Source: Dudresnaya verticillata
Taxonomy: Eukaryota
DNA: 64,000 nucleotides
Direction: 5' to 3'
NCBI GenBank assembly: GCA_977862235.1
Contig: OZ374565.1
Coordinates: 1,798,001-1,862,000 of the forward strand
A program made the translations under genes and the position numbers. This document shows positions 1 through 26,401 of this stretch, one piece after another (within the stretch, counting starts at the first letter, position 1; the number at the start of each line of letters is the position of its first letter). Below the pieces are notes generated by a model. That model saw only the letters and a program-made list of their open reading frames with translations. It was not told the origin of the DNA and searched no databases.

Positions 1-265
1 TTGCCTCGCTAGGTTTTCCCCTTTCCTTTTCCTTTCCGTCGGCTTCGTGCTGCCCTTCGACAGGGACGCTGGGACCCGGCCGCTGCCTACCCGCGTACGG
101 TACGCCCCGTGCGCGGTCCGGCATCGACGCCGTCGATCCGCACCTGCGGGGCGCACGCCGCCGTCACCGCTCTACCAACCCCAACAGCTACCCATCGACG
201 GGTCTGTGTGGCGGCTTCGGACCAGCAATTATCAGACGTCGGATCGACCCGAGCTCTATACTACA
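1..265 (+). repeat. 3' part of an LTR, truncated by the window start
   Basis: Ends in ...CTATACTACA. It is a diverged reverse complement of 3417-~3700 and abuts the 3' region of the LINE at 266. Confidence 0.65.
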
Positions 266-3416: not shown

Positions 3417-4046
3417 AGTAGTATCGCTCTCGTCCCGGGCATAGACGTCAGGTCGAACTGACGTCTAGCTGCGGTGGTCGATCAGTCGCACCCAGACCCG
3501 TCGAAGGGTGGCAGCTGTGGTGGTAGAGCGGGGGTGTCGGCCGCGCGCGCCGTCGACGGTCGCGGATCAACGGCGTCGAAGCCTGAGCGCGCACGGGGCG
3601 TACCGTACGCGGGCGGCAGCGGCCGGATCCCTGCGTCCCCGTCGTGGGGCGGCACGAAGCCGACGGTAGGGAAAGGAAAAGGAAAGCCTAGACGGCTAGG
3701 AAAAGAGGGAAGGCGTAGGGCGAAGGACTGGGAAAGAAACCCAAAGCAGAAAGGGCAAGCCTGGCGTAGGCTGGCTTGCCTGGTTTACTGCAGCCCAGAG
3801 GGGCGACTACTAGATATAGTACAGGGCCTGCGGCGGCACCAACCCGGGAGGTGCGCCGGCGCGCCCCAACACGCGTCGACGCGTACGGGTAACGGCAACC
3901 CGGGGGCGCGCGTGGGCGAAACGGTCCACACGTACTCAACGGCTCGACGCCGGAGTGCGCGCGCGCGTGTCACGCACTCAACGGCTCTGCGCCGGAGTGC
4001 GTGCGCGCAGCGCGCAGGACAGCAGGGCGTTCGACCGCCGCTTACA
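3417..4046 (-). repeat. Solo LTR, same family as 1-265
   Basis: Minus strand starts TGTAAGCG and ends ..ATACTACT. It has a short internal tandem duplication at ~3930-4002. No TSD found. Confidence 0.6.
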
Positions 4047-4518: not shown

Positions 4519-5448
4519 GTTGTCTCGGATCGTGACCCGAAGTGTACATCAAAGTTCTAGGTGCAGTTGATGAAAATACTCCAGATAGACCTGAAAATGT
4601 CAACTCACGCTCACCCACAGACCGATGGACAATCTGAGGTCAGGAACAAGATGGTCGAAACCTATGTTCGTCTATTCTGTAACTACAATCAGAACAATTG
4701 GGACGAGCTCTTACCAGGGGCAGAATTCGCCTACAGCTCGTCTCATCATGATGCTACCAGTTTCACACCATTCTTTCTCGATCTGGGTTGGGAGCCTCGA
4801 AGCCCCCTCTCTGTCATTTCCGGACAAGAAGATACAAATGTAGGAGCAGTGGAAGACTTTCAGACAATCCTTGCCACATCATTCCAGGACGCCAAACATG
4901 CCTATACTATTGCCCAAGAACATCAGTGTCGTCAGAGAACCCCGCATTTCCGTGTGCCGCGTTTTGCGATTGGTCAGCATGTTATGATGAGCCGCAAGAC
5001 GCTGTCCGACCCATATGGAAAAGGCCAGGCGTCGGTCAAACTTCAAGCCAAAAGAATTGGTCCGTTACAGATTGTTGAGTTGGTTGGCAAGAATGCAGTG
5101 AGGCTGCAGTTACCTCAACATTTTAGAGCTCATCCAGTCGTCAACATATCATTCATTGAGCCTTATCTTCGACAGCCAGAGGACATTAGCAATCCATTAC
5201 CAGAACCTGAACCGCCGGTCGAGCTTGATGCCGGACCCGAGGAATATGTGGAGAGTATTCTGAAGCATAGACATCGTGGTCGTGGATGGCAGTTCCTTGT
5301 ACTATGGAGAGACCAACCATTGCATGAAGCTACGTGGATCCCTGCTCGAAATCTAGTCGATAGTGATGATACTATTAACGAAGCTTTACTAGCATACGTC
5401 CAAAATCAAGAGGATCTTTCCATGGACAAGGTCACTCGGTTAAGGTGA
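4519..5448 (+). pseudogene. Gypsy A integrase C-half with chromodomain
   Basis: SDRDPK..KF*, HPQTDGQSE, HPVVNIS, then chromodomain YVESILKHRHRGRGWQFLVLWRDQPLHEATW. Confidence 0.92.
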
Positions 5449-5454
5449 CTATAG

Positions 5455-5727
5455 TGTAACAGTACACATTGTATCCGGGGGCCACGGATGCCGATATTCC
5501 AGAAGGGATTCGATATGCCATATCGAGGGAGCATTCGTTCCACAGTAGCGATAGATAGATGATAGAGAAGTAGCGAGGATGTAGCAAGTTGGATGGGTAT
5601 ATGTAGCCCATCTGATGAATGACCAGGAAAGGGGGGCATCTTGATGCTAATTTCAGTTCCAGAAGTAAAGTCCGGTATTCCGTTCCTGTTCTACTCTGTT
5701 TTCCCGTTCTATCTCGCTACTGTTTCA
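5455..5727 (+). repeat. Gypsy A 3' LTR (273 bp), followed by TSD CTCAT
   Basis: TGTAAC...TTTCA. Reverse-complement copy at 25913-26185. CTCAT at 5728-5732. Confidence 0.92.
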
Positions 5728-5990
5728 CTCATGATTGGCTTGGTCAACCGGTTACCCGGTCTGCAACGAGCGGCTCTGCGCATGGTTGGCACTGCTTTCC
5801 ACGTCGAGTTCATCGTAGTATTGCATTGAGCTTATCGTAGGATGTCTGGGCCCTGCAAACGGCTATGTCATCGGTTGAGGCCCAAGGCAACCTACGATCC
5901 TCCTGCACGAATCCTACAGGGCCTGTTTCGGAATGACTTGACCTAAACATAGTGCAGTCCAATTGTGACATAATTATGTTGAGCGTAAAT
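5728..5990 (+). mobile_element. Fragment of old Sola-family copy (small coiled-coil ORF homologue), inverted
   Basis: Frameshifted LQRAALRMVG / RVHRSIALSLS matches LQRAVLRMVGSVFHRVHRSITLALS of 16470-16739(-). Confidence 0.8.
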
Positions 5991-8515: not shown

Positions 8516-9054
8516 TATCATCAATGAATTACGCGATCTGCCACGCTTATCTTGTTGTTAAATTATCTATGAAGAGGTCTTGTTCCTTCTCGGCGCCGAT
8601 TCGATGAGACTGGAATTTTCTCAGTCGCAGTTGCACCCATGATACGTTTGTCTTCTATAGCCGGTTTCCAGTATGTTCACAATACAGTTCTGCAAAACAC
8701 ATGTGACCGGGGCAAGTTTGAAGCTTAAATATAGAGTCGCCAATGCCAGACAGCGGCGAATGTTTGATACCACAGTCTTCAATGTTTTGAATGGGACTTT
8801 CAAGATTTTTAGAATGCAATCCATAACCGTATATTCGAGGCCGTGCCGCTCGAAAAGGGAAGCCCATAACTGATGCTCATATAGCCACTAAAGTAGCTGA
8901 GGAATTCTTGATGTTCCGATTGGTAGGTGCTGATATTGCCAGCCAAGAACCTCAGGTTCTGAAGATTGCAGAAATAGTGGCGTTCCTGGCTGTCCAACTT
9001 CCTCTCCGTGTTCATTCAGCTCAACGAGTGAGCCTGCATTGGATGGTACCGCAG

Positions 9055-9161
9055 CTCCAAGATCCCCCGATGGGGGATCTTGGAGTCAGGGTCAATGAGA
9101 ATCTCATGATCCACTTTCCCCGCTGGAGGTAATCCATCCGGTAACTCGGATTTAAATACAT
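9055..9161 (-). pseudogene. Gypsy A pol fragment just upstream of RT, continuing across the Sola insertion
   Basis: DVFKSELPDGLPPAGKVDHEILIDPDSKIPHRGI joins in frame to ...NILESFQ at ~23801 when the insert and one CTTG copy are removed. Confidence 0.88.
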
Positions 9162-9165
9162 CTTG

Positions 9166-9790
9166 AACACAGATTTCCGGGTTTTCAGAATCTATGTTCC
9201 GAATCAGTCTGAAAAAATGTTAATGGAATGAAGATTTCTATATCGCGTTAGACTGGGGAGAGGGAGCTGAGAAGAATGGTGTAATCTGTTTCGCGATAGC
9301 ACGCGCGGTTGCGGAGCTACAGCATGCCGCATATACGGGTAAATGTCCCCGAAACTTTCGTGAAAGTTTCGAAACTTTCGGAATTTCAGAATTAAAATTT
9401 ACCCAGAAATTGCACTGCCGCCTGCTGCCCTCCCGGGCGCGCCTTGCAGCGCACCGACGCTCGTGCTTCAGCACGCTTGGCCCCGCCCGCCGCATCCCGA
9501 GCCCGCCCTGAGCTGTGTTCAAGGGCACAGTGCCGCCCTGCACGACTGGTACTGCCTAACTGCCAGGGTAAATCTGCGGTAACCCAGTCGTGCGCGGCGC
9601 TCACGCATTCACGTGCTGGTACCAGCACCACCCCTTCCCATGCCCATCATTCCACTCCAAGGTCCACTGCGGCGCGCACCTCGCGCAGCACCTCCTCCCC
9701 GCCTGCCATATCGCATCGCGCATCAACCCCAACACGCCCCGCCGCTGTCAACATCCCCACCCCGCTTCGCACCTCGCGCACGAACTCTAC
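9166..9790 (+). repeat. Left terminal inverted repeat (about 600 bp)
   Basis: Reverse complement of ~23185-23799 with scattered substitutions; ORFs 9238..9543(-) and 23491..23727(+) give near-identical translations. Confidence 0.93.
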
Positions 9791-9910
9791 TGCGCATCAT
9801 CGCGCATCAACCCCAACACGCCCCGCCGCTGCCAACGTCCCCACCCCGCCGCACACCTCGCGCACGAGCTCTACTGCGCATCATCGTGCATCAACCCCAA
9901 CACGCCCTGC
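9676..9910 (+). repeat. Subterminal tandem repeat, about 81-bp unit, about 3 copies
   Basis: CGCACCTCGCGCA...CATCG(C/T)GCATCAACCCCAACACGCCC is repeated; the right TIR has only about one copy. Confidence 0.85.
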
Positions 9911-9929
9911 AAGCAGAAGTCCCTCGAGT

Positions 9930-10794
9930 TGCGCAACTGATGCATTGACATGGGGAGACCACAACTCGATGCAGGTACAGGTGTGACAGCATAACGGTAT
10001 GTTGTATTGTTCTGCGTAAGTTAGCCACGCCCTGTCGATGATATTGTCTCGAGCACAGGTTTGGAATGAGGGCTAGTGAGATGAGTGAGATCTTCTGGGA
10101 ACAGGTTGAGTGCTTCATAGAAGCAGAAGGGCATTTGCTAACAGCGTTCAGGATGGGGCTGTTAGCGACAAAGGCACCCGATTACGCGGCTGCAATTACA
10201 GCAAAAGGTGCCCCTCTGCCGAGCTGCGTGGGTTTCATAGATTGCACAAACATAGACATGTGCAGGCCAGGAGGAGATGGAAGCTTGCAGCGTTGCTGCT
10301 ATTCTGGTCCACAAGCGCAAGCATTGCTTGTCCTATCAGACCATAGCAACCCCTGATGGGTTGATCTTTCACCTACATGGTCCTGAAGAAGGACGCCGTC
10401 ACGATCTCACACTACTCCGGAAGAGCGGTATAGGAACAATTATGGGGAGTAACATGGTCATAAATGGCGTGCAGTACTATATTTATGGCGATGCGGTGTA
10501 CATTATACGTCCCTAGCTACAAACCGCCTTTCCGCTCATAACGGCGACGACCGAGCAGGTCTCATACAACACTAGCATGAGTGTTTTGCGTGAAGGGGTG
10601 GATTGGAGTACAAGGATATCAAGCAAATGTGGTCGTCGCAAGATTTCAGGCGCATGCTGAAGGTCCGCGCCGCACCCATCGGACTACTCTACCAGCCTGC
10701 AGCCCTGCTCTGTAACTTGAGGTTTGTCTTAGACAGGGTGGACAAGTTGCACCTTACTTTGGTTGCAAAGCCCCATCACTGGACTCTTACGTAG
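9930..10794 (+). pseudogene. PIF/Harbinger-superfamily (DDE_Tnp_4 type) transposase remnant
   Basis: LRKLATPCR, CVGFIDCT, YSG.HKRKHCLSYQ, TPDGLI, GPEEGRRHD, IYGDAVY; interrupted by frameshifts and stops. Confidence 0.88.
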
Positions 10795-11082
10795 CATCAC
10801 CATAGGAAAAATAAAGTAAGCCGTACTACACTCCTCGACCGCCCGCGCGAAGCGCAAAAGGACGAGTAGTGAGGACCAAGTCCGCTCTCGCTCCGCTCGG
10901 CACTCGCCTCGCTCGGCGCGCGGACATGGGAAATCGCGGACGGGTGAATCGCGCGTTTTGGGGGTGACGGAGCGATTTGACACCACTTGCGGGACTTCAA
11001 AGGCGTTGGAAAGCCCACTTGCGACCAGAGTAGAAGCAGACACTTTACGGAAGCTTCGCCTCGAGTGCTGCAAGCATATCCA

Positions 11083-11338
11083 CTAAGCCTTTCCGCTCCT
11101 GCATCGATTGCTGCGTTCCTCTACCCCCACAGCGCCTTTCATCTCATCCAACTCGAGGCTGCGCTTCTGCAGGTGCAAAGACTCTGGAGCTTCGATCGGC
11201 TGCCGCTCCTCGCACTTCCGCTCTAGTTCGAAACGCTCTTCCTCCAACTTGAGCCGCATTGACTCCACCTCTCAACGTCGAACCATTTCGTCCATCATGA
11301 CCATAAAAGAGTTCATCAGCCTCAGTAAATTTACTCAA
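11083..11338 (-). pseudogene. E/R/K-rich coiled-coil fragment, possibly the Harbinger partner ORF
   Basis: RLKLEEERFELERKCEERQ; convergent to the Harbinger transposase; frameshifted. Confidence 0.4.
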
Positions 11339-11385
11339 CCCCTTTTTCTACTCTATCTATTCATTGCTATCACTTGACATTCTCA

Positions 11386-11700
11386 CTACACTATTAACTC
11401 CTCTTCATCTTCGCTGCTTAAGGGGTTCGTGCAGCTCCACAGCTCCGCGCATACCGAGCGCACAGCTCTGGCGACAGCCGTCCTAACCGCCGTCGCTTCC
11501 CGCCTCAAGTGGCTGTAGCAGTGCATGAGGAATTTGAATTCCTCCATGCACTCGCGAGCCTCCCTTAAACAGTCCTTCACGATGTCGCGCTGGGCGCGCA
11601 CATCGATGCGAAGTAGTACCACTTGTTCGTATGCTTGTCGGGTTGCGTTGCGGGTCATGGTAGGTGTTGGCTGTGCAGGGGAATACAGGTCGACTTCCAT
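11386..11700 (-). CDS. Small helical hypothetical protein (Sola cargo)
   Basis: ATG at 11700; amphipathic, protein-like composition with an acidic tail; no family recognised. Confidence 0.45.
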   Translation of the reverse strand: MEVDLYSPAQPTPTMTRNATRQAYEQVVLLRIDVRAQRDIVKDCLREARECMEEFKFLMHCYSHLRREATAVRTAVARAVRSVCAELWSCTNPLSSEDEEELIV

Positions 11701-12208
11701 CTTTAATTCTGTAGACTGTGGACTGTCGCAGACAAAGCCGGTCACCTGGTGGAGTTGGAGCAAGTATCTCAGCAGGGGTTGGGTGCGTCAAGTCAAGAGA
11801 TAAATGTCGACAGTAATGGAAATCCTTTACTGCTCATCTACATGGAAAAGTCCAAGTCCTTTTATTCGCTGTGACGTTCGCAAAAGGCAATGTGTCATGG
11901 CACCAATTCCTCAATCTGTGCACCTGGAACCATACGTTGCATTTGTTGGACCTCGTCTCGAAGTATTTTGGAATGCTCGTATGTCACGCGGATGTCGTCA
12001 CAGTTTACTTCTGGGGATGAAGGTACCTGTTGCTGGGTAAAAGTTGGACAATGCAGTGCCAGCAGTTTTCTTGCAGCCTTTAATGTATGGGAAGAGGAAA
12101 AGAACCCCTGAGCTCTCAAAGCAAGGAAACGACAGAGTATCCAATCGTTACTGCCTTTTTTTCATGGTGGTAGTAGTACTACTGCTGCTAATACCTTCAC
12201 GGAGCGCC

Positions 12209-12748
12209 TCATTCGTACATTCGAGTCAAATTGTTGACCTGAACTGTGAGATGCCTGACTTGCAGCAACCGCATCTCCCTTGCGGTGTTTTCATTCATCT
12301 CTACATATCTGGTCTTGAGTAATAGACGGAAGAACCGGTCCAAATGAAAAACCTCTTCTCCAGCCCCGTGGACTACCTCAGATATATAAGATTCCAGTAA
12401 CAGAGCATTTTCCCCTGCATAGCTTCCCTCCTTCACCATTCGGACTTTTCGGCGTAGTAGGCGATACAATTCGCTAAGAATCCTAGTCTCGTGTCTGTGG
12501 TTTCGCGCTTCAGCGTGCGACAGATTCTGGCAGAAACGTTGAAAAGCTTCACTGTCCATGCCCTCGACCAGTTCGATGCCTGATTCACTCAAAGCTTCGT
12601 GAGCCCACTGCCTCGACTTTCGGGCCATCTTCACGGACAAACTACCGTCAAATGTTTTGAACAGGGTATCAAGGCGATCCTCAATTGACTCGTCCTGGTA
12701 TTTTCCCTCGAATGGTGCCCCGTCGCGATCCACGCTAACAATAGACAT
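12209..12748 (-). CDS. Hypothetical helical protein (Sola cargo)
   Basis: About 180 open codons from ATG 12748 with protein-like composition; no family recognised. Confidence 0.5.
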   Translation of the reverse strand: MSIVSVDRDGAPFEGKYQDESIEDRLDTLFKTFDGSLSVKMARKSRQWAHEALSESGIELVEGMDSEAFQRFCQNLSHAEARNHRHETRILSELYRLLRRKVRMVKEGSYAGENALLLESYISEVVHGAGEEVFHLDRFFRLLLKTRYVEMNENTAREMRLLQVRHLTVQVNNLTRMYE

Positions 12749-12766
12749 GGTTGGTGAAATGTTTGG

Positions 12767-14360
12767 TTGCATAGACGAGAAGCGCATTGTGTAACATGCA
12801 ACAGTATCCTTGCTGCAGCAACTATGTTTTATATGACCCATAAAGATTACGACTGGAGTGCAAGATTCAGGGGGGTCAATTCCGATCAGGTAGCAACTGC
12901 TGGAAACAAGGACCATCCCTCTGATGGACAGATCGAACACGATGACGTTCCCTCTCCTCCTGTGAACGTAGATTCGTTACCTTGCAATCGAGACCTCGGT
13001 TCTACCGGAGACCATCACAATCATGATGCAGAAGATGTGCAGGAATCGGCTGTAAAATCTGCTGTGACGGTGAGCACGGAAAAATCGGAGAGGCTGGCTG
13101 TACGTGGGGATAAGAACGGACCTGAAGACCATTTGCAAGCTGATATCTTGAAGTCGTGCAGAATAACCTGCCATCAGATGCGGTGGCAGGTATACAATAA
13201 GAATATTCGCGAGGGTGTTGGTGACCTATAGGACATAGTTCTTACCGACAAACCGTATGGAACGCCTGAATCATAGTCTGGTGCACGGAAACAGTACGAC
13301 AACTATATGAGTGATTCTGAAATATCCGAGCTTGCAGAAATGTGCAGGGAATCCGTTGTACCGGGAGGGTGGGTGTTCATGTTCGTGTCCTACCAGACAT
13401 TCGAACCTATAAGGTAGGCTCTTCTGAAGGCCGGATTCACTTGCCCAACGTACGCCTTTTCGATTGCAAAGGATACAAACACGGTGCAGGAGAGGCGAGG
13501 AAATGACTGTCCCCAAAATGGCCACGAAATTGCCGTCATGGGAAGAGCCCCAGGACAACACCCCAATGGATTTAAAGTGGATCTTCGAAGCCCATATCAA
13601 TTAGTGAAGGCTTCGGAAAAGAGGAAGTTTGCGTGCATGTCTCAAATTCCCGTTTCTAAGAAGAAGCTCCTTAAACCGGGTACAAAATCCCCGGTGCTTA
13701 CTGAGGAGAAGAATGTTCAGCTGTTGGTGGAATTGTTGACGACCTTCTGCCCTGAGGGGGGGCATTTTGGACATGTACGCTGGAACGATGACAGCTGCAA
13801 TTGCAGCCGTGCAGACTGGTAGGAAATGCACCTGTATAGAGCAGAGCCTACAGACATACAGGCTTGCAGTTGCACGCCTGAAAAGGATAGCAAGTGATCA
13901 TCGCAAGTTGTCGGAAGGAATGGAAGGAACACCACTGTGCCATGGTACAGTGGAAGAGGCCCTGGGAGAAGACCAGGGAGCGGATGTGGAAAACCCGCAA
14001 CAGAAATTGCTCAGGAATGAGGCGAAGAAAAATTCGGATTGTATTACTGGCGGCGATGCAGTTGTTCTGTACGTTGGGAAGAACGCTGTTGGGAAGGCAA
14101 AAGTCCAATTCGGGGCAAGTTCTGATGAAAACTTTCGCAAGCAGATTCATCTGAAACCCCTGTCGGAATACGAAAAGCCAGGACAGGAACTCATTGCGCT
14201 GTATGCCTTCGAATGTGATTCATCCTTTGCCACCTCAGCATATCCGTATAGCTTTCATGTCCCGAACGGCCGCCCTTCCACGATTCTAAGTGAGCTAGAC
14301 GGATTTTTTGCATGGGATATCCATGCGATGAAAGTCCAGGAGCGGTGCGACCAGAAATGA
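12767..14360 (+). pseudogene. Beta-class DNA amino-methyltransferase (N6-adenine/N4-cytosine type) with extra C-terminal domain, disrupted
   Basis: Reading through TAGs at 13229, 13274 and 13415 and a frameshift at the G-run 13756-13762 gives DIVLTDKPYG...EMCRESVVPGGWVFMF...LLKAGF...HEIAV...EEKNVQLLVELLTTFCPEGG-ILDMYAGTMTAAIAAVQTGRKCTCIE...YRLAVARL. Motif IV precedes motif I. Confidence 0.85.
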
Positions 14361-14852
14361 GGGTAAAGCAGAGTTGAGCATAATAATCGTTCGCTTCACT
14401 AGTTTCCTACGCCATAGCGCAATATCTCAAGCCATATTCACATGCTACTCCTCGCTGGAGACCCTGTACTGCCACCGACAGCGCTATCCCGGTATAAGTC
14501 CACAGCGCAAAAGTTGCATCATCGCTCGGTCCCATTTCCGCAGCAACTTCTCTTTCACAATGTCGGATCTGCAGAGTTCCATCGAATTGTAGCTCTTGCA
14601 GAGCATGGGATGAATGTCGAGCGGCATGGAAGATCTGCCAACAAGCATCTACAGGAATGATGCATCCACGGCCCCGGAAGAGTAGTAGTAGCGAGGCGGG
14701 TCGGGTCACAGTACTGTGAGAATATCGAGAGCTTCGATTTGCAGGTAGGTGCACTCGAGCAATACACTAGCGTCTCATCGCGGGACGAGTGCCCGCAGTT
14801 CCGAAATTACTGTAATCGCGTGAAAACCTATCCAATATTATGGAGAATGACC

Positions 14853-14999
14853 AACAGCTTTTCGGAAAGCCGCACGTAAATTTCTATTAAACAGCATATA
14901 CACTGTACGAGATCTGAAAACCTATGATAGGTTTTCCGAAACGCGAGAGCTGATGTGCTGTTTAATAGCTTTTTGAATCTCACTGGTCGAAAAGATGTT
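14853..14999. repeat. Imperfect 147-bp palindrome centred on 14926
   Basis: Symmetric arms at 14916-25/14927-36, 14884-96/14956-68 and 14853-64/14988-99. Confidence 0.85.
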
Positions 15000-16469
15000 A
15001 TAAGTTTTGCGGTTGCCTCGGGCCAAACACCTTTTTGATAGAAACTACGTTTGCTCGACCCCAGGACCTATTCCATATTATGGAGAATGCAAGATAGCTT
15101 TTCAGGGCGCGCGGCATAACTCTCCAGGATTTTTTCCGCGAGATTTATCGCTGATTCCCTTCTAGGACTTTTCTTTCGGAACACCTGGGTCCCTCCACCC
15201 GTCCGGTTGTTGGCCAGCGCCCTCCCATATGAGATTGCGTTTGCAATCAGGAACAGGGTGCACCGTGGTGATACAGCTAAGTCTTGAACTTGAAGTGACG
15301 AACCGAAAAGTTGGCGGTGCCTGCGTTCCGTTACAGACTCCCGGATCTGCAAAGCGTAATACGGCCCTGTGTTCTTCCTGACCTGCCATTGTCTTCTCAA
15401 AATGGGGCACTCAACAGCAGCATATATATTTGAGATGTCTGTGAAGTTTCATGGGAATGTTCTGAGAGATTAGGGGACATTCCGGTCAGAGAGGGCAGAA
15501 AGAAGCTCGCCTCGAGAGCCGGCTTGACGGCCAGAGCCTGGTATTTCCATAAGTATGTAGTCCGTTTTGTGAGCAGCACTGCATTTCCAATCCCGGAGAA
15601 GAGGCCAATTGACGGAGTACGCTTCAACCTGATGCATGGGATGAGGCAACAAAAAATGCAGTTCTTCCCTCAAACGCAAGGCCGTCTGTGTGCTGTTGTA
15701 TCACAACTGTTTCAAGTGATTCTAGCCAGACAAGCTTGTCTGGACTTGTCTCAAGCAAAATGCTCTAAACGTATCGGTCTGTATCCGGGCACCACACGAA
15801 TCCTCTTCCGCTTCCCGCGAGGCTGCTGTGATGCTTCCTTCGTTGTTTGAAGATATCTCAGTTCTGTAGCTCTTGATGAAACAATTCGTGACGCATAAGG
15901 ACACGTAGGCTACCTATATTTGTTTAGAGCTGAAGGATGAGTCGTCGCGGACGACACCGATCAGGCAGTGGCCCATCTGGCAGCTGCGACTTCAGTTTCC
16001 ATACATAGTGACACTTGCATCGAGTCATTTTCACGCCATGGAGACTCTCGGGGCGTGGATACTTGTATCCATTGCATTTCCGAAGTGCTTCTTCATAATC
16101 CTGTGCCCATTTCGGTTGGTGCCAGTCCGGTTCAGACCCTAAACGTTCGTGGCGATCTGTCGCCCATCGCAGGACGAACTTAACTATTCGTTAACGTGCG
16201 CGTTGCTGAGCGCGTGTTGACTATGCAGTGTATAGTCTGCACTCTTGAGCAGTGTAGATAGAGTGTGAGTGTGTACTTGTGGAGCAAACACTGTTAGGTC
16301 TCGTTGGAAACGTACCAGTTTGCTCGCGAATGGCCGCACAATGCTCTTGGGGCTTGTTCCAGCGGAAAGGCAACCTAGATGGAGCGGGAAACGGCTCGGG
16401 TCGTGAAGTGCGCTCAGACATATTTACTAATGGCGGCTACCGTGCCATGGAGGTTCCGGAACAGATCTT

Positions 16470-16739
16470 CTAGGATTCGGAGCGAGAGGATCGTGGGCTG
16501 GATTGGGTCTCCACGGATGTCATCACAGTTTCCAGGGCAAACATAGCCTGCGATAAGGCCAATGTTATACTGCGATGGACCCGATGGAAGACACTGCCAA
16601 CCATGCGCAGAACCGCTCGCTGCAGACGGGCAACCAGCTGACTTAGCTCATGCTGAGCGCTCCTAAGTTGCTGGAATTCTTCTTCAAGCTCAACGAGTTG
16701 CGCTTCGACATCTTCAAGACTTATGTCATCCGTTTGCAT
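16470..16739 (-). CDS. 89-aa coiled-coil hypothetical protein (Sola cargo)
   Basis: Heptad pattern LEDVEAQLVELEEEFQQLRSAQHELSQL. A homologue is split between 26186-26271 and 5728-5920. Confidence 0.65.
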   Translation of the reverse strand: MQTDDISLEDVEAQLVELEEEFQQLRSAQHELSQLVARLQRAVLRMVGSVFHRVHRSITLALSQAMFALETVMTSVETQSSPRSSRSES

Positions 16740-17011
16740 TAGGCTTGTTCCGTGACTTCAGACTCCTCGTTTCTGCGCGCAAGGTGGCTCTGCAAAGCCG
16801 CGATATGTACCCTTGCATCTGTACGTTTCTCCTGGATGAAGACAAGCATACGGTTGATTCGACACACAACTGGCCACCCTAGTCGTTGAAGCTCACGCGA
16901 CAAGTACGATACCGTCTCCCGAATGGTCCTGATCTCCCCCTGTAGTGTAGCTATTCTCTCCTGAGCGGAATGCAGCCTCCCTTCTCTTGTCTTTTGATAC
17001 ATGTTGTGCAT
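16739..17011 (-). CDS. 90-aa coiled-coil hypothetical protein (Sola cargo)
   Basis: Its stop overlaps the next start (TAATG). A homologue is split between ~61991-62140 and 26271-26401. Confidence 0.65.
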   Translation of the reverse strand: MHNMYQKTREGRLHSAQERIATLQGEIRTIRETVSYLSRELQRLGWPVVCRINRMLVFIQEKRTDARVHIAALQSHLARRNEESEVTEQA

Positions 17012-17775
17012 AAGGTATAGTCTGGAACGTTTGTCTCACGGCTAACTTCAAATTTGCAGACTGGTACTTGATGCACAGGTTGGTGCATGTTCGCAAACTG
17101 GTGAAAAGCCAGCTGTAGCCCACGGTAGCTCATTGGATTGACTTGTCCTTCTTCTGCAAGAAAACTCACGGGGCATCGAGACGTAAACATCAACGCAGCC
17201 GGCAGCCGGGGTTGTACTTCTCGGCCCATTTCGCTGCTATTTCTTGTCCTTGACGTCCATCAATACTACCCGCTTGTGGTCGCATGGCGGAATAGAGCAG
17301 TCTGCACGGCGTACCCTTGCAATACCGAGTACTGCTTCTTGATTGACGGGGACTCCAGATTCGCGACTTGTCCGTTCTGATTGGTAATATGGCACGCTCG
17401 TCTCTCGAATCAGACTGTTTTGTTCGCACTGGCGCTATAGTGTATGCCGGAATGGAGTGGTGCATACAGAGCGAGAGGGAAGCCCTTCCAATACCAGTCG
17501 TTTTAACTGCGATCCGTAGCAACTCTGGGCATGCGCAAGCCTGTCATGCAGAACGCCCCACCGCCACTGGAACAGTATTATATCGGTGTCGTTTCAGAAG
17601 CGCCCTCGGCCCTCCCGAATATTTCAGCTCTTCAGAACAAGTAGCGCACAACTATCGCGCCCTAGCGGGAACATCGATTTTGTTGCTTCACTTCGCCCGC
17701 CCTGAGTGCAAAGAGAATATTGCACTAGTGAATTGCAAAAGGCTCAGACTCCCCTGCCGAAAGGGATAGTAGGAC

Positions 17776-18354
17776 ATGGCCCAAGCCTCATCTAGGCAGG
17801 TTTCGAAAGCAGCAAACGTTCCAGTTCAGAACGACGACGACTTCGGCGATGAGCTGCTTCCCGGAACAAAGCCCGGCGGACGAGTCATGCTCACACTCAA
17901 CGGGGAACACGTTACTATAGCAACCCTGCTACAACCTCATGATTTTAGGGAGGGTGCCGTTGATCCCAGTGGTGGATTCAGCACATACCTGCACGGGCGC
18001 AACCTTGGGCCTCAACAAAGTGATGGAGAAGTATGGGTTGTAGTTCATCTCGTGCGATGCCTCCACAACTGCAATTCCTACGACAACTCGTTCCAGTTCA
18101 AACCAGGCAGTACGCCTTGTCCGGAGACACTGAGTCGAATGCAGACTGGAAAACACGCCTGGGACCTATTCCAGATTGAGGATCTCGTAACCACCTACAA
18201 TACAGAGCAAAGAAAAAGCTCAGGTGCAACTGTCTCCGGAGTGGAAAAACGTGCGGTGGCTGACGCTAACCCACCAACACCCCCTCTGCTCAGGGTTCGC
18301 AAATCCGCTCCTCACCAAAAACGGCAGCATGGTGCGGAGAAATTGCAGCGGTGA
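17776..18354 (+). CDS. Probable N-terminal segment of the transposase gene (small beta-rich domain)
   Basis: Overlaps the transposase ORF by 4 nt. Conserved in the second copy at ~62890-63470. Confidence 0.6.
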   Translation: MAQASSRQVSKAANVPVQNDDDFGDELLPGTKPGGRVMLTLNGEHVTIATLLQPHDFREGAVDPSGGFSTYLHGRNLGPQQSDGEVWVVVHLVRCLHNCNSYDNSFQFKPGSTPCPETLSRMQTGKHAWDLFQIEDLVTTYNTEQRKSSGATVSGVEKRAVADANPPTPPLLRVRKSAPHQKRQHGAEKLQR

Positions 18355-20828
18355 AAAGCCCTTCAACACCACCGCCAGAGAAAGGCAATGAAGAGGAAGA
18401 AGTCACAAAACGTCTGCAATACACACCTGTACGCCGACCACCTATGCGTGAACGACCCCAGAAACCATCCAAGAATAACGTCCCGGACGCCTTACCAGTC
18501 TCTTCGGCCCCAGTGTCTCTTGAACCCACGACTACACCCATGGAAGAGAGAGGTCCTCGTGTAGGCGTGACAGACAGAGGCGATGCAGATCTGAAACAAA
18601 ACTCTGCTAGGGCTGTCGGATCTATTCCTTCTCGAGGAAAAGGAGGAAGCGACGAAGAGAACTATATCACGCCCCAGCCATGCCCTGCACCCAATGTCAG
18701 ACGTACGCCTGAAAGCAGTTCGGGTTTTAGTAGTGGCGCACCAGAACCCGACCCTGGTGCTACCCCGGCGTTGGCCGCGAGTACTAACACAAAGGGTGAC
18801 GTGGAACGAACGCCAGGTGCTGATGGCTCGGAAATAGAGCACGGTGAGGAGCAATCAGATGCTGCGACGTTGGATCTGGTGAGCGACGCAGAGGTGAAAG
18901 GTGGAAGTGATGGAATATTAGAAGACGAAGATACTGGAAGCGACCAGGAAATTGAGGACCTCACCAAGGACGCGGATTACGTGCCGAGTGCGACAATTTC
19001 ACGAAGACGCACGGCAGCGTATGAGGCTGAACGGGTCCCGCAAACGCCCAGAGCTGCTGAGGATGAGACCAATGGCTCCCGAAAGAGAAGGTACCGCTTC
19101 TACGCAACACAAAGAAAGAAGTTGAGGGTTGGTGATACTGCATTGCAAAAGCGTCGCAATGCTGCTCTGGAAAGGCTTGATGAAGAAGACTGGGGCTCCA
19201 AGGAGTGCTGTATGCGGAAGCAATGCTTCAAGAGGGTATCGATTGTGTACATGAAAGCCGAGATTCGCAAACTGTTGCGTATGGACGCCCATGATCGACG
19301 AAACTATTTGCACGGGTTGTTGCAGCGAGCGGGATGGAATTATGACTTCGACGGTAAGCCAGTATGCTACACGTTCCTGGAGAAGGCGTGTGGGTTTTCC
19401 AGGGACCTGAAATATTCAGTCAAGCAGTTTGGTGGAAGCCGGCCTATGGAGGGTGACAATGCCGTGCCGTATCAGCCTCCGAGTGAGGGCAGGGATAAGA
19501 TACTGAGTTACCTCAACCGGCTTGCTGAGATAACAGCAAGCTGCATGCCCGACGCAGATGAGAAGCATCTGCCGTACTTTGATAAGGCTGCGGTCTACGA
19601 GAACTTCCTTCTGGACCAGGAGAGACTGTATCCTGGAAAAGCCCCGCCTCGACTAAACTACTTCTACCACGTCTGGAAGCAGCACCGCAGTGACATAAAA
19701 GTCCGCAAAATCCAACGCTTCACAAAGTGTTCAGAGTGTGAAGAATTTCGTGCTGGACTTTCCAGGGCCGGTACAAACCGCAGACTTGCGGAGCCGTTCC
19801 TGCTCCGTATAAAGGAGCACTACAAGTTGGTTACAAAGGAGAGGGTGTACTACAGGGAGAATACGGAAAAAGCTACTTTGTATCCCTCCGAGCACTGTTC
19901 ACTGATAATTGATGGCGCGGACCAGAAAGCGTTCGGAGTACCAAAGTTCGTGGTCAGTACGAAGGCTACGCGTGGACATGCCATAGCAACCAAAGTTGTG
20001 GGCGCATTGGAACACGGTTCATTGAAGCACCTATCCCTATTCGTCATGACAGGAGAGTTTGAGACCGGCGCAAATCACATGATCGAAACAGTCCATCGCC
20101 TTCTCACAGTCAAGCATAACCATGGCACTCTGCAGCCTACGCTGTTACTGCAGCTAGACAACTGCACCTGGGAGAACAAAAATAAGTACATGCTTTCTTA
20201 TCTGGAGTGCTTAGTCGCGTGGGGTGTTCTGCATGAAGTGCAAGTTTCCTTTCTTCCAATCGGCCACACCCATTCTGACATCGACCAGGCCTTCAGTTGC
20301 ACAAGCAAGAGGGTCCGATCAAAAGACATGCCGACTATGTCTTGCTTTCTCCGCGAACTAAGCATGTTATACACGCCTCGTCCATCGGTAGCAAGGTTGC
20401 TGCAGGTAGCCAACTTCTCCGGGCTGTGTGACAAGTATGCGTGTATTGGAAAGAATGAAGCATTCTCACACTACAGATTCTTTCGTATTACTCGCCAACG
20501 AGGTAAGGGAATGGGCAGAAAAGCGAGATTACGCATGCGATGCCTCGTCAAGATTCAGTGTGGATATGAGTGGAAACCACTTGTAACAAAAGCACGTGGC
20601 AACTCTCTCAAACAGGAAGGCTTCATACTATTCACCACTGACCTCTTTAAGACGCCACAGACCATAGCGCGATGCCCACCTGATATGAAGGAGGTCAATT
20701 ATGGCATACGTTGCACCGAAGTGCGAGCGCTCAAGGCGTCGCAGATCGCCGAACTGGAAAATCTTAGGGATCACGTCTATAGAGATCGAAACGAACCTTT
20801 TCACTGGGACTTGGATCACGCCCCGTAG
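18351..20828 (+). CDS. Sola-like DDD transposase
   Basis: CCMRKQC..VCYTF and KCSEC cysteine motifs; putative catalytic motifs IIDGADQ (~19911), LQLDNCTWENKN (~20157) and FLPIGHTHSDID (~20280). Confidence 0.88.
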   Translation: MKSPSTPPPEKGNEEEEVTKRLQYTPVRRPPMRERPQKPSKNNVPDALPVSSAPVSLEPTTTPMEERGPRVGVTDRGDADLKQNSARAVGSIPSRGKGGSDEENYITPQPCPAPNVRRTPESSSGFSSGAPEPDPGATPALAASTNTKGDVERTPGADGSEIEHGEEQSDAATLDLVSDAEVKGGSDGILEDEDTGSDQEIEDLTKDADYVPSATISRRRTAAYEAERVPQTPRAAEDETNGSRKRRYRFYATQRKKLRVGDTALQKRRNAALERLDEEDWGSKECCMRKQCFKRVSIVYMKAEIRKLLRMDAHDRRNYLHGLLQRAGWNYDFDGKPVCYTFLEKACGFSRDLKYSVKQFGGSRPMEGDNAVPYQPPSEGRDKILSYLNRLAEITASCMPDADEKHLPYFDKAAVYENFLLDQERLYPGKAPPRLNYFYHVWKQHRSDIKVRKIQRFTKCSECEEFRAGLSRAGTNRRLAEPFLLRIKEHYKLVTKERVYYRENTEKATLYPSEHCSLIIDGADQKAFGVPKFVVSTKATRGHAIATKVVGALEHGSLKHLSLFVMTGEFETGANHMIETVHRLLTVKHNHGTLQPTLLLQLDNCTWENKNKYMLSYLECLVAWGVLHEVQVSFLPIGHTHSDIDQAFSCTSKRVRSKDMPTMSCFLRELSMLYTPRPSVARLLQVANFSGLCDKYACIGKNEAFSHYRFFRITRQRGKGMGRKARLRMRCLVKIQCGYEWKPLVTKARGNSLKQEGFILFTTDLFKTPQTIARCPPDMKEVNYGIRCTEVRALKASQIAELENLRDHVYRDRNEPFHWDLDHAP

Positions 20829-20875
20829 ACGAATGGGAGCTGTGAAGGGACAGTAGACAGCATAGAGACCCCGAA

Positions 20876-21256
20876 ATGCTTCCGGAGATACCAGAAGTGG
20901 AGCAACAACCCGCACAGGACATAACCTACAGCCACAACAGAATGGTGGCCGTCAATTATGTTCAGGCAACCGAGCAATGTCCTTTTTACGTGGCAAAATT
21001 GATGGAAGTTGTGACAGGGGACGATGGAAGGTTTCGAAATTGTTGTTGCGGTGGTATGAAGCCAAGCACACCGGTAATGTTTTCAGTGCAACTTACAAAC
21101 CTTCATTCTACAAAAACCAGGCGCGGGGTCGCAAAGGAATGGGAAGGAGACGTCACCGTTGATTGCGTACTTGTGGAGTTCGAGTCGCTCACCAGGAATG
21201 GCAGGCTACCAGTTTCTGTGCAGAAGAAGTTGCGCGAGTGCCTTTACAAGCAGTAG
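20876..21256 (+). pseudogene. Frameshifted transposase C-terminal beta-barrel (BAH/SH3-like) domain
   Basis: MVAV..PFYVAKLMEV../KLLLRWYE../W..DVTVDCVLVEFESLTRNGRLP, assembled across two frames. Confidence 0.6.
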
Positions 21257-21468
21257 CATCCACAACATTTCACGCCCGCAGCCAGATTGATAGCAACGAA
21301 TAGATAGAGTACTGAGAAGGTGTAAATCTAGGTGTGTAAATCTACTGAGACAGAATGGAAAGTTAACCTTATGTCTTCTGTAAGCTCACTTCGCACTTGT
21401 CTTCAGTCGCGATGCTATCCGCGAGGGGGCTGCTGCGGTGAGTGTCTCATGAACTTGTGCAACAAGCG

Positions 21469-21957
21469 CTAGAATATTGACTCGGTGTTGCTCGGCATCC
21501 TCCGACTTCGTACGTCCCATTTGCAGTCCAAGGAAGTTTCCTCTCGGCTCCGCAATCCATGCGCCTGCACGAAGAGGAGGGATGATGAGAGGTAGCGTAC
21601 TAGGCCGGTCGGTGCAACAGTGATGCGCATTAAAATGCCCAGCTCAGTGGCTGGTGGGTTCCTCCATGGAGGTGCAGTGCACTGAAAGAGGTGATTGAGG
21701 AATGGAATTCCCGCTTCCAACGCGGAACAAAGTTCCGCAAACCGCCCGATGGAATCCTGCACCCATTCAGTGTCGGAAGGTTCATCATCTTGTACGTGAT
21801 GCATGCGCTCGTTCGTGTCCATGTTTTCCTGAATGGCAGAAAGGGCTCTTGCTATCCATTTTCGCCCAAATTGGCTATCATTAGCTTGGACCGACTCTGC
21901 GTACCAGTTGACTAGTTGGGTATTCCGCTCGGCATGCGAGAAGAGCAGCAAGGTCAT
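21469..21957 (-). CDS. Hypothetical protein (Sola cargo)
   Basis: 162-codon ATG ORF with protein-like composition, convergent with the transposase; no family recognised. Confidence 0.35.
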   Translation of the reverse strand: MTLLLFSHAERNTQLVNWYAESVQANDSQFGRKWIARALSAIQENMDTNERMHHVQDDEPSDTEWVQDSIGRFAELCSALEAGIPFLNHLFQCTAPPWRNPPATELGILMRITVAPTGLVRYLSSSLLFVQAHGLRSREETSLDCKWDVRSRRMPSNTESIF

Positions 21958-23184
21958 GGAAACCTGTTGCTTTGTTGCTCTCCTCAGCGATGGGAAACAG
22001 GTAGTACTGGTATGTGCCGCGACTGACAGAAGTGGCGGAGATGACTCGTTCCGAATGAGTCCGTGTCGCCTGCGTAACTAAGGATGCGAATCTCTGATGT
22101 TTCCCGACCAACCATGACGGTTTCGGCTGCAGTATCCGAACTGACGCTAAGCTCTGAAACATGAGATTGCTGTGGTTGTAACTAGGGTATTACTTGACGC
22201 GAGCTACAAAAGCCCAACTGTACGCGGAGTTTGTGGGCAGCTACGATTTCCCCTGTAAGATGAGCCCAGTTGTTGCGCTTCTGCTGCTTTCTGAATTCGA
22301 GAAGGCTGAACAAAAGCAGCTACTGAATTTCTGTGAATTGCCGCATGAGCATACCCACGTATTGGGATAGGGTTGGGTCTTGCCGGATCCGCTTCACGCC
22401 CTTGGCGACAATTTCGGTAGATTGAACCTGCTCCCACATTCTCTTCCCAGCGAAGAACATATACCCCATTAATGGCTGCCTTCTTCTCAGGCTTTAGATA
22501 TATTTCAAAACGCCCATGACAGATGCGTGCGCGCATCAAGGCTGGTATCTCTGTCGTGGGCACATCTGCGACGGCCCCTAACCTTACGACATAACGATTC
22601 CTGCCAACCGCGGAAAAAGGACCTGGTACCTCTGGCTAAGGTAGAGATTTACCAAGTTAGGAAACAGATCACTGTGAAACAACGCATCTTGTAACTTGCG
22701 CCATCCCTATTGGCACTACCCATGCACTGAAAAGGCCGTCGCAGGCGCTAGCTCGCTGCAACGGCTTGGCTGCGCTTCCTCGCTTCTTCTGGAGATTCCT
22801 GGTTATCTGTCGCTCTGAACAGGTGGAGCCGTTCTGTTTGCAGTCCTGGAAGGCTGCTGATGCCTCGTACCCTACATCACGCCCGGTCTGCTCACGCATG
22901 AGCTCATCAAGCACAAAATATGCAACCGGGACACCCGCAACTGGTCCGATAAACGGGACGCAACGCAAAAAGGCATCCCATGGCACATATACAGCAGCAA
23001 TACCGCACTTGAGCGGTCCATAGTGATGAAAAGCCAAGACGTGGCGTTCTGCATAGCCAGGGAAGCCTGCCGTTCACGCGTGGTCATGATGGCGTAGTAT
23101 TGTGGTGGACTCACTGGCGCGCATGGCGGCGCGACTGGAGGTCGCAGTGAGGGCGGGTGGTAGATGCAAGAGGGAGTCGCCTAT

Positions 23185-23799
23185 TCGTACAGGCGCGGCG
23201 GGGTGGGGATATTGGCAGTGGCGAGCCGTTTTGGGGTTGATGCGCGATGCGATATGGCATGCGGGGAGGAGGTGCTGCGCGAGGTGCGCGTCGCACTGGG
23301 TCTTGGATTGGAATGATGCGCATGGGAAGGGGTGGTACTGGTACCAGCACCCAGAGTGGAATGATGGCCGCGCACGACTGGGTTACCCCAGATTTACCCT
23401 GACAGTCAGTCAGTATCAGTCGTGCGGGGCAGCACTGTGCCCTTGAACACAGCTCAGGGCGGGCGGGGGATGCGGTGAGCGGGGCCAGGCGTGCCGAAGC
23501 ACGAGCGTCGGTGCGCTGCCAGGCGCACCCGGGAGGGCAGCAGGCGGCAGTGCAATTTCTGGGTAAAATTTAATTCGGAAATTCCGAAAGTTTCGAAACT
23601 TTCACGAAAATTTCCGGGACATTTACCCGTATATGTGGCATGCTGTAACTCCGCAACCGCGCGTGCTATCGCGAAACAGATTACACCATTCTTCTCAGCT
23701 CCCTCTCTCCAGTCTAACGCGATATAGAAATCTTCATTCCATTAACATTTTTTCAGACTGATTCGGAACACAGATTCTGAAAACCCGTAAATCTGTGTT
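23185..23799 (-). repeat. Right terminal inverted repeat
   Basis: Inverted copy of 9166-~9790. Confidence 0.93.
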
Positions 23800-23803
23800 C
23801 TTG

Positions 23804-25912: not shown

Positions 25913-26185
25913 TTAAACAGTAGCGAGATATAACGGTAAAATAGAGTAGAACAGGAACGGAATACCGGACTTTACTTCTGGAACTGAAATTAGCATCAAG
26001 ATGCCCCCCTTTCCTTGTCATTCCTCAGATGGGCTACATATACCCATGCAACTTGCTCTATCCTCTCTAATTCTCTATCACCTATCTATCTTTACTGTGT
26101 AACGAATGCTCCCTCGATATGGCATATCGAATCCCTTCTGGAATATCGGCATCCGTGGCCCCCCGATACAATGTGTACTGTTACA
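25913..26185 (-). repeat. Gypsy A 5' LTR (273 bp)
   Basis: Inverted copy of 5455-5727, flanked by ATGAG (= CTCAT on minus) at 26186-26190. Confidence 0.92.
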
Positions 26186-26401
26186 ATGAGCGTCCTAAGC
26201 TGCTGTAATTCCTCTTAAAGTTCAACGAGTTGTGCCTTCAAGTCTTCGAGAGTATTGTCGTACATTTGCATCATGCTTGGTCGCTGAATTTGGAATCCTC
26301 GTGTCTGTCGAGGAGGTGGCGCTGCAAAGCCTAGGTATGTGCAATTATTTATGTACTTTTCTCCTGGATAAAGTTAAGCAGACGGTTGATTTGACACACA
26401 T
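26186..26401 (+). mobile_element. Fragment of old Sola-family copy
   Basis: Homologous to ~16655-16868 (VCQINRLLNFIQEK vs VCRINRMLVFIQEK). Confidence 0.82.

What the first reader, a model, noticed from the sequence alone, without database searches (positions are those of the whole stretch)
12767..14360. Prokaryote-type beta-class DNA amino-methyltransferase carried by a eukaryotic cut-and-paste transposon
Seen: the ORF track fragments this gene and misses its catalytic motif. Reading through three in-frame TAGs and one frameshift gives the full beta-class layout: DKPY (13247-58; DPPY-like motif IV), VVPGG, HE, EK, then LDMYAGT..AA..GRKC.CIE (motif I, from 13767). It lies between the TIRs of a Sola-like element. 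Established: this layout is typical of bacterial and phage m6A/m4C MTases. Eukaryotic examples I know are DAM-like domains of DIRS retroelements and bdelloid N4CMT; I know of none in Sola elements. Inference: the family may have written its own m6A/m4C mark for self-regulation or silencing evasion. This copy looks dead.
Basis: partly seen in the sequence, partly recalled or inferred. Interest (0 to 1): 0.92.

Follow-up and report, generated by a model that had tools for sequence, protein, structure and literature searches.

The report
ParB-fused DNA methylase in Sola-like transposons
This is a broken copy of a bacterial-type DNA methylase gene inside a eukaryotic jumping gene; intact relatives are fused to a predicted ParB-like DNA-binding domain and recur beside the same kind of transposase, so the element likely marks its own DNA, an idea already proposed for other red-seaweed transposons but untested.

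Summary
Observation confirmed. 12767-14360 (+) is a beta-class N6/N4 methyltransferase pseudogene: three TAGs, one frameshift, DKPY for DPPY. It lies between two nested pairs of inverted repeats together with a DUF7869 (Sola1-like) transposase.

Added here: the copy also lacks about 430 N-terminal residues. Intact relatives (about 50% identical, 890-1010 aa, DPPY) carry a ParB/Noc-like domain, the methylase, and usually a small C-terminal domain that also occurs on some of the transposases. The family is large (225 clusters at 50% identity, E<=1e-30). Only 33 of 90 keep a canonical motif IV.

The pairing is not a one-off. Two fetched contigs show it directly; one encodes ParB-like + methylase + SET.

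The concept is not new: a 2025 Bostrychia preprint describes PF01555-SET and ParB-oxygenase accessory genes in red-algal Plavaka, Mutator and Zisupton elements. Not found in print: the ParB-methylase fusion and the Sola-like carrier.

Likely mechanism (inferred): ParB binds a palindrome in the element and the enzyme writes 6mA in cis. No activity or mark was shown.

The parts
12767..14360 (+). 5'-truncated, broken beta-class N6/N4 DNA methyltransferase gene (linker remnant, methylase, C-terminal domain); three TAGs and one frameshift
13247..13258 (+). Motif IV read as DKPY; DPPY in the 10 other members of its clade
13767..13787 (+). Motif I (LDMYAGT), downstream of the frameshift beside the G run at 13756-13762
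14046..14333 (+). About 100-aa C-terminal domain of no known family
   Evidence: iE 1.8e-24
14824..15103 (.). Repeat cluster just downstream of the methylase: inverted repeat 14884-14968, perfect palindrome 14916-14936, direct repeat 14826-14863 / 15066-15103 holding the palindrome TCCATA-T-TATGGA; candidate parS-like site (inferred)
17875..18180 (+). Second copy of the C-terminal-type domain, just upstream of the long transposase frame and probably its frameshifted N-terminus
   Evidence: iE 2.3e-11; same domain at the N-terminus of P0063, P0078, P0099
18270..20828 (+). DUF7869 transposase, 852-codon open frame with IIDGAD, LDNC and GHTHSDID motifs; Sola1-like
   Evidence: (E 1.7e-42)
20885..21256 (+). 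C-terminal domain of the transposase, cut off by a stop and a frameshift
11321..11372 (+). Inner inverted repeat, left arm (about 50 nt, imperfect); no clear target duplication (at best CAG with a terminal mismatch)
21288..21349 (-). Inner inverted repeat, right arm
9165..9765 (+). Outer TIR, left; target duplication TT (ends GAACAC) or CTTG (ends AACAC); inserted in a Ty3/gypsy pol gene
23198..23800 (-). Outer TIR, right (92% to the left arm over 603 nt)
9901..10810 (+). Broken DDE_Tnp_4 (PIF/Harbinger-type) transposase gene, inside the outer TIRs and outside the inner repeats
   Evidence: E 3.2e-7, above cut-off
12209..12976 (-). 255-codon frame of unknown kind, lying where the methylase's N-terminal domain would be
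   Evidence: no homologue at E<=0.001 among proteins of 188-599 aa

Best explanation
The window holds a broken, 5'-truncated copy of a methylase gene whose intact relatives fuse a predicted ParB-like domain to a beta-class methylase and recur beside Sola-like transposases, where they likely write 6-methyladenine on the element's own DNA. Shown: the lesions, the domain layout of relatives, the PF01555 match, DPPY in the closest clade, and adjacency to DUF7869 transposases on two contigs. Predicted: the ParB/Noc fold of the N-terminal domain. Inferred: five more family pairings from contig lengths; binding of the ParB domain to the palindromes beside the gene; methylation of adenine rather than cytosine; and a benefit to the element (keeping it transcribed, resisting silencing, or tuning transposase access). 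In sub-lineages that lost DPPY the protein would act as a DNA-binding or chromatin factor rather than an enzyme.
For: Homologues at 46-55% identity, intact at 887-1010 aa. Domains are conserved (N-terminal 53%, methylase 54%, C-terminal 33%) against linkers at 13-18%, as purifying selection would give. Best PDB matches of the methylase are m6A beta-class enzymes M.BceJIV, M1.HpyAVI and CcrM. N-terminal model pLDDT 91; its top 10 Foldseek rows and top 14 VIA rows are ParB/Noc/KorB/PadC/Spo0J, best Z 8.9, with 94 residues at 1.8 A to M. xanthus ParB. Nine same-source, size-feasible contig-length matches with DUF7869 transposases in 5 families; jitter mean 0.067, maximum 3 in 20,000. L011 and L013 show adjacency directly. 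The C-terminal domain is shared with three transposases and with window 17875-18180. An inverted repeat follows the gene in the window (the only 16-nt local inverted repeat in 64 kb) and in L013 (82-nt arms). Loss of DGxHR and of motif IV go together (14/8/6/23, Fisher p=0.003, rows not independent).
Against: No activity, methylome or expression data. 57 of 90 members lack a canonical motif IV. Only 5 of 11 families with contigs long enough matched a transposase, on a list of just 116 transposase records; two further matches were impossible by size, so coincidences occur. 87 of 90 fetched DUF7869 loci had no hit to any of the three domains and one (L021) only a weak one; most are short and distant. 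Co-divergence of methylase and transposase is weak: rho 0.47, p=0.07 for six pairs; 0.78, p=0.012 only with distant L013. ParB matches have Foldseek E 0.06-0.33 and Z under 9. The repeat cluster was picked after the fact and its sequence differs from that in L013. No TIRs were seen in L011 or L013. AMT1, the main eukaryotic 6mA writer, was not found in the one red alga named in the passage read (Pyropia; 10.64898/2026.05.21.726589), so a host reader of the mark is uncertain.
Confidence: 0.5

Rival explanations
1. The protein is an element-encoded DNA-binding or chromatin regulator; the methylase domain is mostly a scaffold or SAM/DNA-binding module, as proposed for DIRS1 methylase domains, and catalysis is dispensable.
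For: 57 of 90 members, many with long open frames, have non-canonical motif IV (EPPx, DPFQ and others), clustered in clades. The ParB-like domain is kept. PMC4738411 states that DIRS1 MTase domains are likely inactive.
Against: 26 DPPY and 5 DPPF are kept across several deep clades, including all 10 neighbours of the window copy. Motif I and E-K are kept with them.
Confidence: 0.25
2. The enzyme is active but acts in trans or on another substrate: it marks host or rival-element DNA, targets insertion sites, writes m4C, or methylates RNA.
For: PMC8885841 notes that the N6_N4 domain repeatedly switched between 6mA and 4mC, and bdelloid N4CMT marks transposons for silencing. L013 adds a SET domain, pointing to general chromatin action.
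Against: DPPY rather than SPPY in the close clade. A ParB-like module and adjacent palindromes fit action in cis.
Confidence: 0.17
3. The methylase is not part of the Sola-like element here. It belongs to the outer PIF/Harbinger-type element, or it is a separate nested piece or one-off capture.
For: A DDE_Tnp_4 gene lies inside the outer TIRs. The inner repeats have no clear target duplication. The second DUF7869 copy in the window shows no methylase. In the window 3.5-3.9 kb separate the methylase from the transposase.
Against: The gene lies inside both repeat pairs. Close homologues pair with DUF7869 transposases in five families and two contigs. The C-terminal domain is shared with the transposase.
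Confidence: 0.08

Closest known systems
Plavaka accessory genes PAG2 (PF01555 + SET) and PAG3 (ParB-like + 2OG oxygenase) of Bostrychia and other red algae (10.1101/2025.02.11.637652; section 8 read whole, methods as passages; supplements closed)
   Same: PF01555 methylase and ParB-like domain as accessory genes of cut-and-paste DNA transposons; inverted-repeat arrays beside the ParB gene; self-modification proposed; genes move among TE families (Plavaka, Mutator, Zisupton, Fanzor elements).
   Different: Here ParB-like and methylase domains are one protein. No SET or 2OG Pfam hit in the 7 + 52 relatives scanned; SET only in distant L013. The carrier is a DUF7869/Sola-like transposase; 'Sola' does not occur in that paper's main text. 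Sequence relation to PAG2/PAG3 was not testable, and its Supplemental Table 6 may list Sola elements.
Bacterial and phage beta-class m6A methylases (M.BceJIV 8URK, M1.HpyAVI 5HFJ, CcrM 6PBD; PHROG 67)
   Same: Permuted motif order, DPPY, fold (Foldseek E 6e-9).
   Different: 15-20% identity; embedded in a 1000-aa protein between a ParB-like and an unknown domain; no restriction partner seen; inside a eukaryotic transposon.
Bdelloid N4CMT (PMC8885841, passages read)
   Same: PF01555 beta-class enzyme in a eukaryote, fused to a targeting domain; structural match 8S9M.
   Different: N4CMT is a host gene with SPPY and a chromodomain that marks transposons with 4mC; this one is transposon cargo with DPPY in its closest clade.
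DAM-carrying DIRS and LTR retrotransposons (10.64898/2026.05.21.726589, first fifth and passages read; PMC4738411, passages)
   Same: Prokaryote-type adenine methylase carried by eukaryotic mobile elements; DAM-LTRs show raised 6mA and transcription.
   Different: Retrotransposons with a DAM-type domain; 'N6_N4', 'Sola' and 'ParB' do not occur in that preprint's main text.
VANDAL/VANC anti-silencing of Arabidopsis MuDR elements (as cited; primary paper not read)
   Same: Element-encoded protein that recognises its own element and changes its methylation state.
   Different: VANC induces loss of 5mC; here a writer of a different mark is predicted.

Membership tests
Beta-class N6/N4 DNA methyltransferase (PF01555) | Motif IV precedes motif I | tested here: met
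   Window pieces match profile 2-84 then 185-219; homologues 2-220 in one stretch.
Beta-class N6/N4 DNA methyltransferase (PF01555) | Catalytic (D/N/S)PP(Y/F/W) in the window copy | tested here: not met
   DKPY at 13247-13258, plus three stops and a frameshift: a pseudogene.
Beta-class N6/N4 DNA methyltransferase (PF01555) | Catalytic motif and Pfam cut-off in intact relatives | tested here: met
   10 of 10 clade neighbours have DPPY; 7 of 7 above cut-off. Family-wide only 33 of 90 are canonical.
Beta-class N6/N4 DNA methyltransferase (PF01555) | Methylase fold | tested here: met
   P0011 model (mean pLDDT 46 overall, 77-88 in much of the methylase core) matches 8URK, 5HFJ, 6PBD at E 6e-9 to 7e-8.
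Beta-class N6/N4 DNA methyltransferase (PF01555) | SAM-dependent methylation of A or C in DNA | not testable with these tools
   No assay or methylome available.
ParB/Noc CTPase superfamily (N-terminal domain of intact relatives) | ParB/Srx fold followed by a helical domain | tested here: met
   Top 14 VIA rows are ParB-family, Z 5.4-8.9, best unrelated row 3.7; top 10 Foldseek rows likewise but E 0.06-0.33.
ParB/Noc CTPase superfamily (N-terminal domain of intact relatives) | DGxHR-type nucleotide-binding motif (motif recalled, not from a call) | tested here: inconclusive
   DG in 68 and DGxHR in 29 of 82 domains, 11 not parsed; domain absent from the window copy.
ParB/Noc CTPase superfamily (N-terminal domain of intact relatives) | CTP-dependent loading at a parS palindrome and sliding | not testable with these tools
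   Only candidate palindromes seen.
Sola DNA transposons | Transposase motif at the end of the RNase H core | tested here: inconclusive
   Window VQVSFLPIGHT resembles the end of the published Sola1 profile (consensus ielkflepgHs) and not the Sola3 end (ytfsEaQnGK). Only 3 of 94 parts of that supplement were read; the profiles were not run, and Sola2's core motif was not seen.
Sola DNA transposons | Terminal inverted repeats around the transposase | tested here: met
   Two nested pairs enclose it.
Sola DNA transposons | 4-bp target duplication (stated for Sola2 in PMC3627910) | tested here: inconclusive
   Outer pair reads as CTTG (4 bp) or TT (2 bp); inner pair shows none clearly.
Plavaka PAG2 | PF01555 fused to SET | tested here: not met
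   No SET in the window gene or in 59 scanned relatives; present only in L013 (E 2.8e-4, 21.7 bits, cut-off 22.4).
Plavaka PAG3 | ParB-like domain fused to a 2OG oxygenase | tested here: not met
   The ParB-like domain is followed by a methylase in the full-length hits; no 2OG Pfam hit.
Plavaka PAG2/PAG3 | Sequence homology to the published PAG proteins | not testable with these tools
   Sequences are in closed bioRxiv supplements.

The most novel reading that the evidence does not exclude
Sola-like transposons carry a bacterial-style parS/ParB addressing system wired to an epigenetic writer. A CTP-loaded ParB clamp loads at a palindrome inside the element and spreads a fused adenine methylase (plus a SET domain in one distant lineage) along the element's own DNA, giving it a private chromatin mark independent of the host; methylase-dead sub-lineages keep the clamp as a reader or blocker.
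Probability: 0.25. Interest if true: 0.88.

Novelty: new variant of a known kind. Interest (0 to 1): 0.58.

Why it matters
It extends element-encoded adenine methylases from retrotransposons and Plavaka-type elements to a further cut-and-paste lineage. It also joins in one protein the targeting module (ParB-like) and the writer that the Bostrychia study found on separate genes. That makes a testable case of how a transposon could address an epigenetic mark to itself. Intact sequences exist for assay (P0003, P0011, P0016, P0150). The family has at least 225 clusters at 50% identity, and none of the full-length members looked up carries a name. A ParB-type clamp at work in a eukaryotic nucleus would surprise specialists. 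The window copy itself is a fossil.

Tried and rejected
No whole genome is held, so copies, a family consensus and dN/dS were not possible. Sequencing runs: none was listed (no evidence either way). Locus scans with the methylase found no relative in metagenome contigs or viral contigs; transposase scans of viral contigs found none. The 10 DUF7869 loci in prokaryote genome contigs are distant (23-43%) and carry no methylase domain; probably mis-binned eukaryote DNA (inference). TAG recoding rejected. The N-terminal domain is not displaced elsewhere in the window. The 255-codon minus frame found no homologue, so a link to PAG1 is untested. Atlas search of the N-terminal domain gave only unnamed and DUF3723 clusters at 0.94 with 144-162 shared features: a lead, not used. 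The C-terminal domain remains unassigned; its Atlas search and the wide structure search did not complete. The motif census was misregistered and was replaced. The tree is the quick one (81 of 90 domains, those over 180 aa). Earlier-findings look-ups by sequence, place and specific words were empty. The original Sola paper and Yuan and Wessler 2011 were not found under the ids tried, so Sola and ISL2EU end/TSD rules beyond one search are recalled.

Full report
1. Observation. Frame +2 reads DIVLTDKPYG, VVPGG, HE and TEEKN with TAG at 13229, 13274 and 13415; the frame shifts beside seven G (13756-13762) into LDMYAGT (13767) ... GRKCTCIE and ends at TGA 14358-14360. Read with X at the stops, each piece hits only PF01555, in beta order and below cut-off. 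A search among longer proteins gave 7 hits of 533 candidates, 46-55% identical; all 7 exceed the PF01555 cut-off. TAG is a real stop here: none in 2116 codons of four long frames.

2. What the intact gene looks like. Full-length relatives are 887-1010 aa: an N-terminal domain of about 410 aa with WYGVVDGMHR, a variable linker, the methylase with DPPY, a second linker and, in five of six aligned, a C-terminal domain of about 100 aa. Mean identities among the six are 53%, 18%, 54%, 13% and 33%. The window copy matches from the first linker onward; profiles of the N-terminal domain find nothing in the 64 kb, so the copy is also 5'-truncated. The methylase model matches M.BceJIV, M1.HpyAVI and CcrM, then N4CMT. 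The N-terminal domain folds confidently on a 94-sequence alignment (pLDDT 91). Its best PDB rows are Noc, ParB, KorB, PadC and Spo0J: Foldseek E 0.06-0.33, VIA Z up to 8.9 against 3.7 for the first unrelated row. Named viral rows are mostly ParB-like too. The match is consistent but remote.

3. Size of the family. A profile search of 1.84 billion representatives gave 3129 hits at E<=0.001 and 225 at E<=1e-30. Of 154 proteins examined, 86 hold both N-terminal domain and methylase, 18 of these also the C-terminal domain; the rest are single-domain or partial. Of 52 long members scanned, 44 hit PF01555 at E<=0.001 and none hit SET or a 2OG family. Motif IV is canonical in 33 of 90 (26 DPPY). The window copy falls in a clade of 11 (SH-aLRT 98, quick tree) whose other 10 members are all DPPY, so DKPY is a lesion of this copy. 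Loss of DGxHR and of motif IV tend to coincide (p=0.003, kin not independent).

4. The element in the window. An outer pair of 600-nt TIRs (92%) bounds 9165-23800 and interrupts a Ty3/gypsy pol frame exactly (…KLRNILESFQ on the right, DVFKSELPDG… on the left); the duplication reads TT or CTTG. Inside lie a broken DDE_Tnp_4 gene and an inner pair of imperfect 50-nt repeats (11321-11372, 21288-21349) without a clear duplication. The inner pair encloses the methylase and a DUF7869 transposase (852 open codons, E 1.7e-42) whose last domain is broken off. The transposase's FLPIGHT motif resembles the end of a published Sola1 profile and not Sola3's (supplement of PMC5751038, parts 60, 68 and 74 of 94 read); 'Sola-like' is fair, the subgroup is not established. 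I favour a Sola-like element nested in a PIF/Harbinger-type element, but one giant element is not excluded. Either way the methylase lies inside the same ends as the transposase. The host is not given; a red seaweed is my inference from the intron-poor genes and the literature parallel, not a result.

5. Is the pairing general? Exact contig lengths of 40 methylase records were compared with 116 transposase records. Eleven matched; nine are same-source and large enough for both genes, in five independent families, against 0.067 expected when lengths are jittered (maximum 3 in 20,000); two are impossible by size. In one case a 5994-nt contig leaves only 684 nt outside the two genes. Six of 11 families with long contigs had no match, on an incomplete transposase list. 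Among 90 fetched DUF7869 loci, two carry the gene, one has a weak hit and 87 have none. L011 has the N-terminal domain on the opposite strand upstream of a DUF7869 gene. L013, from a distant and apparently intron-bearing eukaryote, has YGVIDGGHR, a methylase with DLPF, and a SET domain upstream of a 907-codon DUF7869 frame. The C-terminal domain recurs at the N-terminus of three transposases and at window 17875-18180, tying the two genes together. Co-divergence is weak (p=0.07 for six pairs), which fits a cassette that also changes carriers.

6. Mechanism. Directly downstream of the methylase lies the window's only local 16-nt inverted repeat, centred on a perfect palindrome, with a second palindrome in a direct repeat (fold z -2.9, region chosen after the fact). 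L013 has an 82-nt inverted repeat with an inner palindrome at the same place, of different sequence. ParB proteins bind palindromic parS sites and spread along DNA (established; also stated). The likeliest reading (0.5) is that the ParB-like domain finds its own element through such repeats and the DPPY enzyme writes 6mA nearby. That could keep the element transcribed, as reported for DAM-LTR elements, or change transposase access. Rivals: a non-catalytic regulator (0.25), action in trans or another mark (0.17), no true link to the Sola-like element (0.08). Binding, catalysis, target base and benefit are all inferred.

7. Comparison with what is known. The Bostrychia preprint (10.1101/2025.02.11.637652; section 8 read whole) reports PAG2 (PF01555 + SET) and PAG3 (ParB-like + 2OG oxygenase) in Plavaka, Mutator, Zisupton and Fanzor elements, inverted-repeat arrays beside PAG3, and the self-modification idea. 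So the kind is known. Ten literature searches found no paper on a ParB-methylase fusion in a eukaryotic DNA transposon or on a methylase in Sola elements; 'DUF7869' gave none. Repbase reports, subscription journals and the preprint's supplements could not be seen and may hold it. PMC4738411 (passages) lists ParB-HTH-fused chlorophyte Dam and phage ParB-terminase loci, of other methylase groups or contexts. PMC3627910 (passages) notes methylases in virus-borne Mariner elements. An unchecked note from this scan describes ParB-like/methylase-like cargo with an Academ-like transposase; it fits cassette mobility but is not evidence.

8. Verdict. Real feature, dead copy, new variant of a known kind. 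Interest 0.58; the clamp-spread self-marking case has probability 0.25 and would deserve 0.88.

Noticed in passing
window 5743-5933 (-), 26187-26400 (+), 61988-64000 (+): A second DUF7869-type copy, 72-77% identical to 16454-18864, split by nested insertions; the first piece is inverted. No methylase was found with it.
   Followed up: partly
window 4561-5725 and 23801-26185, with 8700-9164: Ty3/gypsy chromovirus with LTRs 5455-5725 and 25915-26185 in inverted orientation (94%); with the split copy above this suggests an inversion with a breakpoint inside the retroelement.
   Followed up: partly
L013 1196-5746 (+): ParB-like + PF01555 (DLPF) + cysteine-rich + SET protein upstream of an intact-looking DUF7869 transposase in a distant, intron-bearing eukaryote; joins the PAG2 and PAG3 modules in one gene.
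   Followed up: partly
window 14046-14333 and 17875-18180; P0063, P0078, P0099: Unnamed 100-aa domain shared by the methylase C-terminus and the N-terminus of some DUF7869 transposases; a possible interaction or DNA-binding module.
   Followed up: partly
window 9165-23800: Outer element with 600-nt TIRs whose arms each run into an inward-reading frame; a broken DDE_Tnp_4 gene on the left and a long broken frame of unknown kind at 21400-23199 (-).
   Followed up: partly
window 11386-12976 (-): Two or more frames of unknown function inside the inner repeats (133 and 255 codons); no Pfam match above cut-off, no homologue for the longer one.
   Followed up: partly
window 20-210 / 3489-3682: Another inverted-repeat pair (arms 33-68 nt, 82-92%) about 3.5 kb apart, related in part to repeats at 45460-45725 and 56537-56802.
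   Followed up: no
P0150-P0294: Whole clades with long open frames but EPPx, DPFQ or eroded motif IV: candidate pseudo-methylases.
   Followed up: partly
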